Shown: positions 29,788 to 35,877 of the stretch, in pieces
How the letters are laid out: each line of letters starts with the position of its first letter
Numbering within the stretch: the first letter of the stretch is position 1
Assembly: GCA_029202665.1 (NCBI GenBank)
Contig: CP119326.1
Span: forward strand, 589,092-653,091
Length of the DNA stretch: 64,000 nt
Direction: 5' to 3'
From: Candidatus Brevundimonas colombiensis
GTDB lineage: Bacteria; Pseudomonadota; Alphaproteobacteria; Caulobacterales; Caulobacteraceae
The notes under the pieces: model-generated
Databases searched by the model: none
Seen by the model: only the letters and a program-made list of their open reading frames with translations
What the model was told of the DNA's origin: nothing
Made by a program: the position numbers and the translations under genes

Positions 29788-30052
29788 TTTGGCCTACCGC
29801 GCTCCGCGCTGCTTGAGGCCGGCTATTTGGCCTACCGCGCTTCGCGCTGCTTGAGGCCGGCTATTTGGCCTACCGCGCTTCGCGCTGCTTGAGGCCGGCT
29901 ATTTGGCCTACCGCGCTTCGCGCTGCTTGAGGCCGGCTATTTGGCCTACCGCGCTTCGCGCTGCTTGAGGCCGGCTATTTGGCCTACCGCGCTTCGCGCT
30001 GCTTGAGGCCGACTATTTGGCCTACCGCGCTTCGCGCTGCTTGAGGCCGGCT
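29788..30052. repeat. Tandem array of 7 x 38-bp structured repeat (no spacers)
   Basis: Unit TTTGGCCTACCGCGCTTCGCGCTGCTTGAGGCCGGCTA starting at 29788, 29826, 29864, 29902, 29940, 29978 and 30016; single substitutions in copies 1 and 6. Confidence 0.97.
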
Positions 30053-32729: not shown

Positions 32730-34280
32730 TTATTTCTTGGGAGGGAAGCCGGGAAGGCCCGGAAGGCCTCCCGGAAGTTGTCCGCCGCCCCCGAGAGGGT
32801 TTCCAAGCCCGGCGAGCCGGTCCTGGATGGCTTTCAGATCGTCGGCGGAGGGTTCGGCCATCTTGCCGCCGCCCAGCGCCTTGAGGCGGGCCATGTCGGG
32901 GCCGCCGCCGCCCATGCCGGGCATTCCGCCGCCGAGACCGCCCAGCATGGCGGCCATCTGCTGCATCTTCTTGGGTCCGCCGCGCGCCATCGACTTGACC
33001 ACATCGGCCATCTGGCGGTGCTGTTTCAGAACCCGGTTCACGTCCTGCACATCGACCCCTGCGCCCGCCGCGATCCGCTTCTTGCGGCTGGCGTTCAGCA
33101 GGTCCGGCTTCTTGCGCTCGGCCTTGGTCATGGAGGAGATGATGGCTTCCTGACGCAGGATCATGCGGTCGTCGATGCCGCTGTCGGCCATCTGGTTCTT
33201 CATCTTGGCCACGCCGGGCAGCATGCCCATGATGCCCTGAAGACCGCCCATCTTCTTCATCTGCTGAAGCTGACCGGCCAGATCGTCCAGATCGAACTGG
33301 CCCTTGGCCAGCTTCCTGGCCATCTTCTCGGCCTTGGCCTGATCCAGGTCCTGGCTGGCCTTTTCGACCAGGGCGACGATATCGCCCTGCCCCAGGATGC
33401 GGCCGGCGACGCGGCGGGCGTCGAAGACGTCCAGCGCATCGACCTTTTCGCCGGCGCCTAGATATTTGATCGGCAGGCCGGTGACGGCTCGCATCGACAA
33501 CATGGCGCCGCCGCGCCCGTCGCCGTCGGCGCGGGTCAGGACCAGACCCGTCAGGGGCAGGCGCTCATGGAAGGCCTTGGCCGTGCGGACCGCGTCCTGG
33601 CCGGTCAGGCTGTCGGCGACCAGCAGGGTCTCGACCGGCTTGGAGATCTCGGCGACCTCGGCCACCTCGTTCATCAGCCCTTCGTCCAGGGTGATGCGGC
33701 CGGCGGTGTCCAGGATCAGAACGTCGAAGCCCTGAAGCTTGGCGGCGGTCAGGGCGCGCCTGGTGATCTGGACCGCGCTCTCGCCCTGAACGATGGGCAG
33801 GGTCGCGACCTCGATCTGTTTGCCCAGGGTGGCCAGCTGCTCCATCGCGGCCGGACGGCGCGTATCGAGCGAGGCCATCATGACCTTCTTGCGATCGAAC
33901 TTGGTCAGGCGCAGCGCCAGCTTGGCCGAGGTCGTGGTCTTGCCCGAGCCCTGCAGACCGGCCATCAGCACGACGGCGGGCGGATTGGCGTTGGTATTAA
34001 GAGGGACAGGCTCTTCGCCGCCCAGCATCTCGATCAGGCCGTCATAGACGATCTTGACCACCTGGTCGGCGGGCTTGACCGAACGGATGACTTCTTCGCC
34101 GGTGGCGCGTTCGGTGGCGAAGGCGATGAATTCCTTGACGACCGGCAGGGCGACGTCGGCCTCGAGCAGGGCCACGCGCACCTCGCGCATCGCCTCGGCG
34201 ACATCCTTTTCGGACAGGGCGCCGCGGCCGGTGATCCGGTCGAAGACGCCTGTCAGCCGCTCGTTCAGAGCCTCGAACAT
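32730..34280 (-). CDS. ffh: Signal recognition particle protein Ffh
   Basis: ALLEADV, GLQGSGKTTT, DTAGR, DGDGRGGA, M-domain RKKRIAAGAG. Confidence 0.98.
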   Translation of the reverse strand: MFEALNERLTGVFDRITGRGALSEKDVAEAMREVRVALLEADVALPVVKEFIAFATERATGEEVIRSVKPADQVVKIVYDGLIEMLGGEEPVPLNTNANPPAVVLMAGLQGSGKTTTSAKLALRLTKFDRKKVMMASLDTRRPAAMEQLATLGKQIEVATLPIVQGESAVQITRRALTAAKLQGFDVLILDTAGRITLDEGLMNEVAEVAEISKPVETLLVADSLTGQDAVRTAKAFHERLPLTGLVLTRADGDGRGGAMLSMRAVTGLPIKYLGAGEKVDALDVFDARRVAGRILGQGDIVALVEKASQDLDQAKAEKMARKLAKGQFDLDDLAGQLQQMKKMGGLQGIMGMLPGVAKMKNQMADSGIDDRMILRQEAIISSMTKAERKKPDLLNASRKKRIAAGAGVDVQDVNRVLKQHRQMADVVKSMARGGPKKMQQMAAMLGGLGGGMPGMGGGGPDMARLKALGGGKMAEPSADDLKAIQDRLAGLGNPLGGGGQLPGGLPGLPGFPPKK

Positions 34281-34284
34281 TCAC

Positions 34285-34370
34285 TACCTCATATCGACGG
34301 GTGAAACGGCTCCATACGACAACGGCCCCCGGCGACGATCACGTCGGCGGAGGGTTCTCGCCCACCTCGT
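34285..34370 (-). promoter_or_regulatory. Candidate ffh leader RNA motif
   Basis: Hairpin CCUCCG-C-CGACG-UGAU-CGUCG-C-CGGGGG (34353-34326) in the ffh 5' region, where an alphaproteobacterial ffh motif is known to lie. Confidence 0.5.
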
Positions 34371-34380
34371 TCCTTTTTGC

Positions 34381-34450
34381 GGGCTATCGGCCTTGCGGCC
34401 TGCTTGAGCCCGAGAGGGCTGTGCTCAAGCAGCGCGAAGCGCGGTAGCAC
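34381..34450. repeat. Inverted pair of variants of the 38-bp-array element
   Basis: GGGC-TATCG-GCCTTGCGGC-CTGCTTGA-GCCC (+, 34381-34411) and GTGC-TACCG-CGCTTCGCG-CTGCTTGA-GCAC (-, 34450-34421). Confidence 0.85.
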
Positions 34451-34671
34451 GACAAAAAAGCTGTCGTGTGGGTGGAGACGCGAGGTTCACTTGCGTCGGA
34501 AGCGGCGGCTTATGAAGGAAAACAGGCGAGAAGGCAACCACGGCGAGTCAATCGCGCTATAAGCCCGGTGCGCGCCAAGGCATTTAGCGGATTGTCATCA
34601 TCGTGCTAAGAGCCGCGCCCTTTATAGGGGCGGCGTTGTCGCCAGGGTTTCAGACTTCGGGAGAAGCACGA

Positions 34672-35877
34672 ATGAGCAAGGTGCTGGTTATCGGCGCAGG
34701 CGGCGTCAGTTCGGTGGCCGTCCACAAGATGGCGATGAATACGGACATCTTCTCGCATATCACCCTGGCCAGCCGCACCAAGTCCAAGTGCGACGCCATC
34801 GCCGAGTCCGTGAAGTCGCGTTTCGGCGTGACCATCGACACGGCGGCCATCGACGCCGACGACGTGGCGGCGACCACGGCGCTGATCCAGTCGGTCCAGC
34901 CCCAACTGGTCGTGAACCTGGCCCTGCCCTATCAGGACCTGTCGATCATGGACGCCTGTCTGGCGGCGGGCGTCGACTATCTGGACACCGCCAACTACGA
35001 GCCGCGCGACGAGGCCAAGTTCGAATACAAGTGGCAGTGGGCCTATCAGGACCGCTTCAAGGACGCCGGCCTGATGGCGCTGCTGGGTTCGGGCTTCGAC
35101 CCCGGCGTGACCTCGGTCTTCACCACCTACGTCAAGAAGCACCTGCTGGATTCCATCGAGACGCTGGACATCCTGGACTGCAACGGCGGCGACACCGGCC
35201 TGCCCTTCGCGACCAATTTCAACCCCGAGATCAACCTGCGCGAAGTGACCGCCAACTCGCGTCACTGGGAGAACGGCCAGTGGGTCGAGGGCCCGGCGCT
35301 GAGCCACAAACAGACTTTCGACTTCGAGGGCGTGGGTCAGAAGAACATGTACCTCATGTATCATGAGGAGCTGGAATCGCTGGCGAAATTCTATCCAGAG
35401 ATCAAGCGCATCCGCTTCTGGATGACGTTCGGCGACAGCTATCTGAAGCACCTGGAGGTGCTGGAAAACATCGGCATGACCTCGATCGAGCCGATGGCGT
35501 TCCAGGGCCGCGAGATCATTCCGATCGAGTTCCTGAAGGCCCTGCTGCCGGAACCCGCCTCGCTGGGTCCGATCACCAAGGGCAAGACCAATATCGGCGT
35601 CATCGCCACCGGCCTGAAGGACGGGGTCAGGAAGACGGTTTACGTCAACAACATCTGCGACCACGAAGAGGCCTATGCCGAGACCGGCAACCAGGCCGTC
35701 AGCTATACCACCGGCGTTCCGGCCATGATCGGCGCGGCCCTGATGGTGACGGGCCAGTGGAAGGGCGACGGCGTGTTCAACATGGAGCAGCTGGACCCCG
35801 ATCCCTTCATGGACATGCTGAACCAGCACGGCCTGCCGTGGAAGGTTCAGGACCTGGACGCCCCTCTGGACTTCTGA
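34672..35877 (+). CDS. Carboxy(nor)spermidine dehydrogenase (saccharopine dehydrogenase family)
   Basis: VIGAGGV, NLALPYQDL, YLDTANYE, GSGFDPG, FATNFNPEINLRE; directly upstream of nspC. Confidence 0.9.
   Translation: MSKVLVIGAGGVSSVAVHKMAMNTDIFSHITLASRTKSKCDAIAESVKSRFGVTIDTAAIDADDVAATTALIQSVQPQLVVNLALPYQDLSIMDACLAAGVDYLDTANYEPRDEAKFEYKWQWAYQDRFKDAGLMALLGSGFDPGVTSVFTTYVKKHLLDSIETLDILDCNGGDTGLPFATNFNPEINLREVTANSRHWENGQWVEGPALSHKQTFDFEGVGQKNMYLMYHEELESLAKFYPEIKRIRFWMTFGDSYLKHLEVLENIGMTSIEPMAFQGREIIPIEFLKALLPEPASLGPITKGKTNIGVIATGLKDGVRKTVYVNNICDHEEAYAETGNQAVSYTTGVPAMIGAALMVTGQWKGDGVFNMEQLDPDPFMDMLNQHGLPWKVQDLDAPLDF

What the first reader, a model, noticed from the sequence alone, without database searches (positions are those of the whole stretch)
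34381..34450. Inverted pair of the same element upstream of ffh shows compensatory base changes
Seen: two variants face each other 9 bp apart. The closing stems differ but stay paired (GGCC/GGCC in the array, GGGC/GCCC and GTGC/GCAC here). The inner hairpin also changes while staying paired (GCGC-TTC-GCGC versus GGCC-TTGC-GGCC). The linkers TA(C/T)CG and CTGCTTGA are constant. Inference: selection acts on a single-stranded DNA or RNA fold with a sequence-specific internal loop, as expected for a protein-recognised REP/REPIN unit. Its position between the divergent ffh and carboxynorspermidine operons may affect either.
Basis: seen in the sequence. Interest (0 to 1): 0.6.

Follow-up and report, generated by a model that had tools for sequence, protein, structure and literature searches.

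The report
Hairpin repeat pair inserted upstream of ffh
The two facing hairpins upstream of ffh are copies of a small repeated DNA element, found patchily across Alphaproteobacteria, that keeps an unpaired core while its stems change in matched pairs; it resembles REP repeats but lacks their known enzymes, and here it sits in the tip of a conserved ffh leader hairpin.

Summary
Unit A (34381-34411, +) and unit B (34421-34450, -) face each other 9 nt apart. Both have a 4-bp outer stem, TAYC, an inner hairpin, TRCTTGA, then the outer stem again.

- **Stem pairing.** In 75 distinct copies chosen only by the loop motifs, 96% of stem positions pair, against 73% after shuffling. There are at least 9 outer and 5 inner stem types.
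- **Distribution.** The family occurs in every Brevundimonas genome searched and in two other Caulobacterales genera. It also occurs in scattered other alphaproteobacteria (Tritonibacter, Ruegeria, Sulfitobacter), always with the same unpaired core. The inner hairpin varies from 2 to 9 bp, so the core motifs meet only in a folded strand.
- **Enzymes.** I found no RAYT, IS91-type, Rep_1, phiX-A or ToxN gene, and no Rfam family matches.
- **The ffh site.** The pair is an insertion into the apical loop of a conserved, covarying structure upstream of ffh. About 45 species have an empty site, about 15 have the pair, and at least four other lineages carry independent single-unit insertions there.

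The REP/REPIN analogy holds for behaviour but not for membership. I did not test for any effect on ffh.

The parts
34370..34380 (+). T-rich 5' flank of unit A (TTCCTTTTTGC). It travels with the unit.
   Evidence: It is absent from empty orthologous sites. In 73 units, T makes up 56-75% of positions -9 to -5.
34381..34411 (+). Unit A: GGGC TATC GGCC TTGC GGCC TGCTTGA GCCC
   Evidence: covariance model R1 scores it 51.5 bits, E 9e-9; it folds as two stems around an internal loop.
34412..34420 (.). 9-nt spacer GAGAGGGCT. With the 3' arm of unit A it can form GCCC-GAGA-GGGC.
   Evidence: It is conserved, as GA[AG][AT]GGGCT, wherever the pair occurs.
34421..34450 (-). Unit B: GTGC TACC GCGC TTC GCGC TGCTTGA GCAC (read on the - strand)
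   Evidence: R1 scores it 56.2 bits, E 6e-10.
34451..34462 (-). T-rich 5' flank of unit B (reads GACAAAAAAGCT on the + strand)
   Evidence: Absent from empty sites.
34310..34369 (-). ffh-proximal half of the conserved structured ffh-upstream region: outer helix arm CTCCATA, hairpin 34324-34355, and the arm TCTCGCC-CACC-TCGT of the hairpin whose tip holds the pair.
   Evidence: RNAalifold on 21 empty-site species gives 35-40 pairs, 10-11 of them with compensatory changes. One hairpin gives a weak Rfam ffh-motif hit. The strand is inferred.
34463..34520 (-). ffh-distal half of the same conserved structure: arm GTCGT-GTGG-GTGGAGA, hairpin GACGC...GCGTC at 34477-34497, and TATGAAG.
   Evidence: It is 82-97% identical across the genus and stays beside ffh.
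29791..30048 (+). Seven-unit tandem array of the same family (period 38), between convergent benE and DUF3597 genes.
32730..34280 (-). ffh (516 aa)
   Evidence: Pfam SRP54, SRP_SPB, SRP54_N.
34603..35877 (+). Saccharopine-dehydrogenase-like gene (carboxynorspermidine synthase type)
   Evidence: Pfam Sacchrp_dh_NADP and Sacchrp_dh_C. It is not next to ffh in many relatives.

Best explanation
The pair is two copies of a small (about 30 nt plus a T-rich flank) non-coding repeat that spreads or is maintained in alphaproteobacterial genomes in the manner of REP elements.

Each unit folds, in a single strand, into an outer 4-bp stem and an inner hairpin of variable length. These stems bring two conserved unpaired motifs (TAYC and TRCTTGA) face to face. 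I infer that this folded internal loop is what a protein recognises, that the stems are needed only as structure, and that this is why the stems change in matched pairs.

Shown: the anatomy, the covariation, the wide but patchy distribution, and presence/absence between relatives. Inferred: recognition by a protein, its identity (not RAYT), and which strand folds.

The copy pair at 34381-34450 was inserted, with its own T-rich flanks pointing outwards, into the apical loop of a conserved hairpin of the ffh-upstream structure. It extends that hairpin without breaking it, so it is most likely tolerated rather than functional there.
For: - **Family and fold.** There are 56 model hits at about 30 loci in the genome. 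Pairing-blind covariation is strong.
- **Folded recognition.** The inner hairpin ranges from 2 bp (GC TTC GC) through 4 bp to a 9-bp long form, GC-TCG-NNNN-GCG-N'N'N'N'-CTC-GC. The apical 4 bp of the long form takes at least 11 complementary forms. The two core motifs therefore lie 7 to 22 nt apart in duplex DNA and are juxtaposed only in the fold.
- **Same core across orders.** Brevundimonas 28/28; two other Caulobacterales genera 2/2 and 11/11; the other 45 genera of the order at the level of the reversed-pattern control. Other carriers give 101, 42, 33 and 18 matches. Named carriers are Tritonibacter, Ruegeria and Sulfitobacter. Stems differ between them while the core is kept.
- **Insertion at ffh.** The pair is present in about 15 of the species and in 7 genomes, and the site is empty in about 45. 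Metatranscriptome contigs about 95% identical to the window carry the empty allele. Independent single units lie at the same loop in L052, L071, L093/L037 and L106/L024/L033. The T-rich flanks are absent from empty sites.
- **Other filled/empty sites and copy-number change:**
- **Strand.** Loops on the complementary strand are GAA 33, GGA 9, GCAA 7, and so on; 65 of 73 start with G. That strand folds more stably. It is the sense strand in 11 of 14 co-directional gene contexts.
Against: - No cognate protein was found. Y1_Tnp, Y2_Tnp, Rep_1, Phage_GPA and ToxN are absent from this complete genome. The control genomes gave no hit for Y2_Tnp, Rep_1 or ToxN, so those three negatives are weak.
- Genes next to arrays and doublets are ordinary housekeeping genes.
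- No target-site duplication or clean insertion junction was seen, so transposition is not shown.
- G-T against C-A counts in stems do not favour either strand.
- Units at the rpsO and rpmI sites persist across distant species with compensatory changes. That fits a host function as well as it fits re-insertion or gene conversion.
- The orientation bias is modest (11:3 here, about 16:6 with other genomes).
Confidence: 0.7

Rival explanations
1. The units are host cis-acting RNA elements. Read on the complementary strand (GSSC-UCAAGYA-hairpin-GRUA-GSSC followed by an A-rich or Shine-Dalgarno stretch), they would sit in intercistronic regions and 5' leaders and bind an RNA-binding protein or nuclease that sets mRNA stability, processing or translation of the downstream gene. 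The pair would then modulate ffh.
For: - That strand is the sense strand in 11 of 14 co-directional contexts.
- The unit ends a median of 23 nt from the gene boundary on that side, against 138 nt on the other. It often lies directly 5' of the Shine-Dalgarno site of rpsO, rpmI, rpmA, thiolase and ADH genes.
- GNA/GNRA-like loops lie on that strand.
- Units are kept at the rpsO and rpmI sites across species, with compensatory stem changes.
- All four independent single insertions at ffh have this strand in ffh sense.
Against: - Many copies lie between convergent genes, after terminators, after a tRNA gene, or in arrays of 7-12.
- Presence at a given gene is not conserved. Most species lack the ffh pair.
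- Copy number ranges from 1 to about 70 per Brevundimonas genome.
- No transcript data could be obtained; only contigs were available.
- This reading can coexist with the best explanation, as it does for E. coli REPs.
Confidence: 0.2
2. No specific recognition is involved. The units are hairpin-forming DNA that multiplies by slippage, unequal recombination and gene conversion. Matched stem changes arise mechanically, by intrastrand template switching within the palindrome rather than by selection. The core is shared only by descent.
For: - Arrays have array-specific spacers and change copy number between close relatives (12 against 3 units). A tandem pair collapsed to a hybrid unit.
- Single mismatched intermediates are rare, as templated correction would predict.
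- No enzyme was found.
Against: - The unpaired core is kept across different orders while the stems and loop turn over. Descent alone would not do that to unpaired bases.
- Dispersal to about 30 unlinked loci, and repeated independent arrival at one hairpin loop, need more than local slippage.
Confidence: 0.08
3. The inverted pair is a palindromic double-stranded operator for a dimeric regulator of ffh or of the polyamine genes.
For: It is an inverted repeat in a divergent intergenic region.
Against: - The same units occur singly, in direct tandem arrays, and at about 30 unrelated loci.
- The spacing between core motifs varies with inner hairpin length.
- Most relatives lack the pair.
- The neighbouring + strand gene lies elsewhere in many genomes.
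Confidence: 0.02

Closest known systems
REP / BIME / REPIN elements with RAYT (TnpA-REP, HUH Y1 transposase) of enterobacteria and pseudomonads (GTAG superfamily; PMC3733652)
   Same: Both are short GC-rich extragenic hairpins in tens to hundreds of copies. They occur as singletons, tandem clusters and inverted doublets. They show complementary stem changes between subfamilies, presence/absence between relatives, and a location between co-directional and convergent genes.
   Different: There is no RAYT gene in this genome and only 2 of 41 in the genus. There is no unpaired GTAG at the 5' end of the stem; here GRTA lies 3' of the inner hairpin, inside an asymmetric internal loop, and half the copies read GATA. 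The stem is split in two with a conserved 4/7-nt internal loop. Units lie closer to the downstream gene start than to the upstream stop. The family spans several orders with one core.
CGTC-tagged REPs / NTS-SRM repeats with Ssn GIY-YIG single-strand nucleases (PMC3733652, PMC11893778)
   Same: Both are mainly alphaproteobacterial hairpin repeats that long lacked a known enzyme and are recognised as folded single strands. This is a model for how a cognate protein might be found.
   Different: The sequence and anatomy differ: there is no CGTC tag and no ATTCC...GGAAT stem. This genome carries a separate CGTCATTCC family (about 92 copies), and a GIY-YIG gene preceded by that kind of hairpin rather than by TAYC/CTTGA units.
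Subterminal hairpins of IS200/IS605 and nick sites of HUH replication proteins (CTTG|ATA in pC194/phiX174-type origins; own knowledge)
   Same: In both, a hairpin presents a short conserved single-stranded motif. The core here contains CTTGA.
   Different: The match is only five bases and is recalled from memory. No HUH family tested is present in the genome.
d(GCGAAGC)-type GNA mini-hairpins (own knowledge)
   Same: On the complementary strand the commonest inner hairpin is GC(GC)-GAA-(GC)GC.
   Different: That is a thermodynamic motif, not an element family. It explains the loop preference but not the conserved internal loop.
ffh RNA motif, Rfam RF01793 (PMC2704228)
   Same: A conserved bulged hairpin lies just upstream of ffh in alphaproteobacteria. 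One hairpin beside the pair gives a weak match.
   Different: The score is 26.2 bits against a threshold of 35, and it was obtained on a relative. The paper reports the motif as not found in Caulobacterales. The pair lies in a different, neighbouring hairpin.

Membership tests
REP/REPIN (GTAG superfamily) | Short extragenic palindromic repeat in many dispersed copies | tested here: met
   56 model hits at about 30 loci, nearly all intergenic.
REP/REPIN (GTAG superfamily) | Unpaired GTAG (or a close variant) at the 5' end of the stem | tested here: not met
   GRTA lies 3' of the inner hairpin within an internal loop. TATC (giving GATA) and TACC (giving GGTA) are about equally common.
REP/REPIN (GTAG superfamily) | Cognate RAYT (Y1_Tnp) gene in the genome, flanked by the repeats | tested here: not met
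   PF01797: 0 hits in the own genome (99.98% complete). 2 of 41 genus genomes have a hit. 0 hits in the carriers G040 and G027.
REP/REPIN (GTAG superfamily) | Inverted doublets as the main replicating form | tested here: inconclusive
   Tail-to-tail doublets recur at ffh, at 1098287/1098392, in the G051 rrn spacer, and in G055 and G122. Most units, however, are singletons or direct arrays.
CGTC-REP / NTS-SRM with Ssn | CGTC tag and ATTCC...GGAAT-type stem | tested here: not met
   Unit sequence. The CGTCATTCC repeats are a separate family in this genome.
CGTC-REP / NTS-SRM with Ssn | GIY-YIG Ssn gene flanked by the repeat | tested here: not met
   There are three GIY-YIG hits, none near a TAYC/CTTGA unit. 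The one at 2823746 is preceded by an SRM-like hairpin.
Any Rfam 15 RNA family | Covariance-model match | tested here: not met
   No hit overlaps the pair or the array at E up to 10.
Type III toxin-antitoxin antitoxin array (ToxI-like) | Tandem repeats of about 36 nt directly upstream of a ToxN-type toxin gene | tested here: not met
   No ToxN hit, though the control genomes gave none either. Array neighbours are benE, DUF3597, ADH and FtsJ genes.
Intrinsic terminator | GC-rich hairpin followed by a U run | tested here: not met
   The T run precedes the hairpin on one strand and an A run follows it on the other. The scan finds none.
ffh motif RF01793 (for the neighbouring hairpin, not the pair) | Match above the Rfam gathering score, located 5' of ffh | tested here: inconclusive
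   26.2 bits against 35, on L066, in ffh sense.

The most novel reading that the evidence does not exclude
The conserved TAYC/TRCTTGA internal loop is the recognition site of an undiscovered protein that acts on folded single strands in Alphaproteobacteria. This would make the family a third REP-type system beside GTAG-RAYT and CGTC-Ssn. Its partner could be a nuclease or recombinase, or a host RNA-binding factor. It could be found by correlating gene content with unit copy number across carriers and non-carriers.
Probability: 0.35. Interest if true: 0.75.

Novelty: new variant of a known kind. Interest (0 to 1): 0.58.

Why it matters
Small palindromic repeats are common in bacterial genomes. 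Only two kinds have a known partner enzyme: RAYT for GTAG repeats, and since 2025 Ssn for CGTC repeats.

This family keeps the same unpaired core in at least two orders of Alphaproteobacteria (Caulobacterales and Rhodobacterales) while its stems turn over freely. No known partner is present, and no Rfam entry or description turned up in the literature I could search. It therefore points to a specific, findable recognition factor for folded DNA or RNA.

It also offers a natural experiment. The same essential-gene leader (ffh) exists with no insert, with single units, and with the doublet in related species. The arrays are hypervariable and could serve as strain markers. If the element is only a passive palindrome, the finding is an ordinary REP-like repeat.

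Tried and rejected
- **Transcription.** The only RNA-labelled runs are kept as contigs, so they show neither strand, ends nor level. They did show the empty allele in a 95% relative.
- **Replication-coupled orientation.** The origin is near 1.07 Mb and the terminus near 2.49 Mb. Unit strand does not flip between replichores (10:4 and 11:7), so this is rejected.
- **An extra base pair between Y of TAYC and R of TRCTTGA.** The four combinations occur 37/28/26/26, so the positions are independent; rejected.
- **Strand from G-T against C-A in stems.** Counts were 3 against 2, which is uninformative.
- **Candidate partners.** Y1_Tnp, Y2_Tnp, Rep_1, Phage_GPA and ToxN were all absent. GIY-YIG genes are not linked to the units.
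- **Neighbour genes.** Those beside arrays and doublets in G000, G040 and an IMG/VR contig with six units include no nuclease or transposase. The 196-aa ORF beside the 12-unit array looks spurious.
- **Target-site duplication.** Flanks at filled/empty sites are too diverged to read junctions.
- **Phage records** gave no match, and the IMG/VR matches are mostly chance.
- **Promoter and terminator consensus scan** of the intergenic region found nothing, and it does not cover Caulobacterales promoters.
- **Known RNA motifs.** By inspection and from memory only, the loop does not fit a K-turn, the sarcin-ricin/loop E motif or the 11-nt tetraloop receptor.
- **Literature.** Searches by organism, by REP terms and by the core sequence found no description.

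Full report
**Observation.** The region reads exactly as described.
- Unit A, 34381-34411 (+): GGGC TATC GGCC TTGC GGCC TGCTTGA GCCC.
- A 9-nt spacer, GAGAGGGCT.
- Unit B, 34421-34450 on the - strand: GTGC TACC GCGC TTC GCGC TGCTTGA GCAC.

The 3' (CTTGA) ends face each other. Each unit carries a T-rich flank on its outer side (34370-34380 and 34451-34462). TGCTTGAG occurs 9 times in the window against 1.3 expected. ffh is 32730-34280 (-), and the + strand neighbour at 34603-35877 is a saccharopine-dehydrogenase-type gene.

**Family and covariation.**
- The window lies in a complete 3.30-Mb, 66.8% GC chromosome of a Brevundimonas. The nearest Ffh sequences are from B. vesicularis, B. nasdae and B. 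huaxiensis.
- A covariance model built from 19 distinct units finds 56 hits at about 30 loci, including arrays of 12, 7, 3, 3, 2, 2 and 2 units.
- That first set was chosen for pairing, so I repeated the test on units picked only by the two loop motifs plus the closing C-G pair. This gave 75 distinct sequences from this genome and from loci of about 110 other genomes.
- In that set, 96.0% of stem cells pair, against 72.8% after shuffling and 21-50% with slid partners. 118 cells have both sides changed. The covariation score is 0.50 against 0.13, reached by 0 of 500 shuffles.
- Three of the 75 are evident chance matches inside genes, and they supply most of the unpaired cells.
- Outer stems include GGCC/GGCC, GGGC/GCCC, GTGC/GCAC, GCGC/GCGC, GCCC/GGGC, CGCC/GGCG and GTCC/GGAC. 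Inner stems include GCGC, GGCC, GCCC/GGGC, GCTC/GAGC and GTCC/GGAC.
- Compensatory changes also occur between copies at one site. At the rpmI site, GCTC/GAGC here corresponds to GCCC/GGGC in G018. At the rpsO site, GGCC/GGCC here corresponds to GCCC/GGGC in G009 and G041. Unit A in one species has GGTC/GACC.
- Within most orthologous copies of the ffh pair the stems are constant, and only the hairpin loop and the R of TRCTTGA vary.

**Anatomy.**
- The consistently kept parts are a T-rich run 5' of the unit, the 5' loop TA(C/T, rarely A)C and the 3' loop T(G/A)CTTGA. The two variable loop positions are independent of each other.
- The inner hairpin is 2 bp (GC TTC GC), 4 bp, or a long form, GC-TCG-NNNN-GCG-N'N'N'N'-CTC-GC. 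The apical four pairs of the long form take at least 11 complementary forms.
- The two core motifs are therefore 7 to 22 nt apart in duplex DNA and meet only in the fold. This is my main argument that the element is read as a folded single strand. It also argues against a duplex operator.
65 of 73 begin with G. From my own knowledge, these match the GNA/GNRA classes of unusually stable loops.
- That complementary strand also folds 1-2.5 kcal/mol better, with better z-scores.
- The pair as a whole can alternatively form one long hairpin.

**Distribution.**
- The model hits all 24 genus genomes first sampled, with 1-43 hits each.
- I then used a loop-only pattern with a reversed-pattern control (0-3 matches per genome).
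- In the order scan, Brevundimonas is 28/28 (up to 69 copies). Two other Caulobacterales genera from other families are 2/2 (183 copies in G040) and 11/11. The remaining 45 genera, including the sister genera of the same family, are at control level.
- In a class-wide sample of 401 genomes, further carriers appear in unrelated families, with 101, 42, 33, 18, 6, 6, 5 and 5 matches.
- Units lie on chromids or plasmids of Tritonibacter mobilis, Ruegeria sp. TM1040 and Sulfitobacter pontiacus.
- Sequences fetched from these carriers show the same flank, two stems and core, with their own preferred stems, and tandem arrays of period 35-40.
- One genome in that sample (G577) is unpublished.

**What the pair is doing at ffh.**
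- Alignment of the orthologous region shows a conserved structure of about 200 nt that stays beside ffh even where the + strand gene lies elsewhere.
- RNAalifold on 21 empty-site species predicts several helices, 10-11 pairs of which have compensatory changes. For example, the helix CACC/GTGG here is ATCC/GATGG, GGGC/CCCG or TGCC/GCAG elsewhere.
- One hairpin (34324-34355 here) gives a sub-threshold match to the Rfam ffh motif in a relative: 26.2 bits against 35. That motif was reported as not found in Caulobacterales (PMC2704228).
- In about 45 species the neighbouring hairpin ends in a 10-15-nt apical stem-loop. In about 15 species, and in 7 of the genomes, that tip is replaced by T-run, unit A, spacer, unit B, A-run.
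- In at least four other lineages a single unit of a different subtype sits in the same loop (L052; L071; L093/L037; L106/L024/L033). Two more lineages carry differently built doublets (L045, L108).
- All the single insertions have the same orientation.
- Genomes whose ffh flank is 94-98% identical to this one have the empty site. Contigs from two metatranscriptome runs, about 95% identical and with the same gene order, also carry the empty allele.
- The pair is therefore an insertion, or its allele has been exchanged by recombination. The loop is either a preferred target or simply the only place in this conserved region where an insert is tolerated. I cannot tell these apart.

**Behaviour elsewhere.**
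- Filled/empty differences occur at other loci. One example is a unit 7 nt upstream of a start codon in G002 but not here. Others are two units in G052 at an empty site here, and a unit between rplU and rpmA in G002 and G013.
- Arrays change copy number (12 units here against 3 in G002), and a tandem pair has collapsed to a hybrid unit here.
- No target duplication could be read, because the flanks are too diverged.
- Orientation does not follow the replichore. It leans with transcription: the complementary strand is the sense strand in 11 of 14 co-directional contexts here, and in about 16 of 22 when other genomes are added.
- The T-rich side lies a median of 23 nt from a gene boundary, against 138 nt on the other side. 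It often directly abuts the Shine-Dalgarno site of the downstream gene.
- Neighbours are often highly expressed genes (rpsO, rpmI, rpmA, rplL, tuf, tRNA-Leu, the 23S-5S spacer in G051). I did not test this for enrichment.

**Partner.**
- No Y1_Tnp is present in this genome, in 39 of 41 genus genomes, or in the carriers G040 and G027.
- No Y2_Tnp, Rep_1, Phage_GPA or ToxN is present either. The control genomes were silent for three of these families, so those negatives are weak.
- The genome does hold a separate CGTCATTCC repeat family (about 92 copies), and a GIY-YIG gene preceded by that kind of hairpin. This fits the Ssn-SRM system of PMC11893778 and is not linked to the present units.
- Genes beside arrays and doublets are ordinary.

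**Comparison and verdict.**
- The element works like a REP: a dispersed, hairpin-forming, copy-number-variable extragenic repeat with complementary stem variation and inverted doublets.
- It fails the tested defining features of both described REP superfamilies, namely the terminal tag and the cognate enzyme. It matches no Rfam family.
- I found no description of it in the REP surveys or by text search. That search covers only open-access papers.
- New here are the insertion into the ffh-upstream hairpin, the variable inner hairpin with a conserved core, the strand evidence, and the spread beyond the genus to other orders.
- I rate it a new variant of a known kind. The mechanism (recognition of the folded core by an unknown protein) is inferred, not shown.

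Noticed in passing
window 34310-34369 and 34463-34520: A conserved multi-helix structure of about 200 nt lies upstream of ffh and covaries across Brevundimonas. One hairpin gives a sub-threshold match to the Rfam ffh motif, which the original paper reported as not found in Caulobacterales. It may be a diverged, extended ffh leader.
   Followed up: partly
own genome G000:C1, e.g. 1134891-1135088, 182101, 363186; GIY-YIG gene near 2823746: A separate repeat family carries CGTCATTCC (about 92 copies; CGTC/NTS-SRM type). A GIY-YIG gene is preceded by a CTCATCCCCGCGAAGGCGGGGAC hairpin, which suggests a resident Ssn-type nuclease with its repeats.
   Followed up: partly
own genome, e.g. 800274-800406, 1526135-1526265, 2685567-2685700, 2921932-2922061, 3123818-3123947: A palindromic repeat of about 130 bp (TCATCCCGGCGAAAGCCGGG... 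on both arms) is present at many loci, often near TAYC/CTTGA units. It was seen as multiple BLAST hits of G002/G052 flanks.
   Followed up: no
L192 (G122:C2:715170-715259): A tail-to-tail doublet of long-form units flanks a perfect parS-like palindrome, GTTTCACGTGAAAC.
   Followed up: no
L190/L191 (G051); own genome about 846,900-847,100 and about 300-450: In G051 a doublet sits in the 23S-5S rRNA spacer of both rrn operons. The same spacer in this genome holds only a decayed single unit.
   Followed up: partly
own genome 667826-668295 (L001), compared with L156 (G002): A twelve-unit array (period 40) here corresponds to three units in a close relative. The arrays behave as hypervariable tandem repeats.
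   Followed up: partly
own genome 328686-328735, 559153-559202, 3024633-3024668: Three model hits fall inside long ORFs of my crude gene calls. I did not determine whether these are real intragenic units or over-extended ORFs.
   Followed up: no
L175, L179 (G040): In this other genus the unit is embedded in a longer repeat of about 100 nt (AAAGTGGGAAGG-T run-unit-GGGTTTTGCGGCCAAAAATGCGACAGATAAAG...), itself tandemly arrayed.
   Followed up: no
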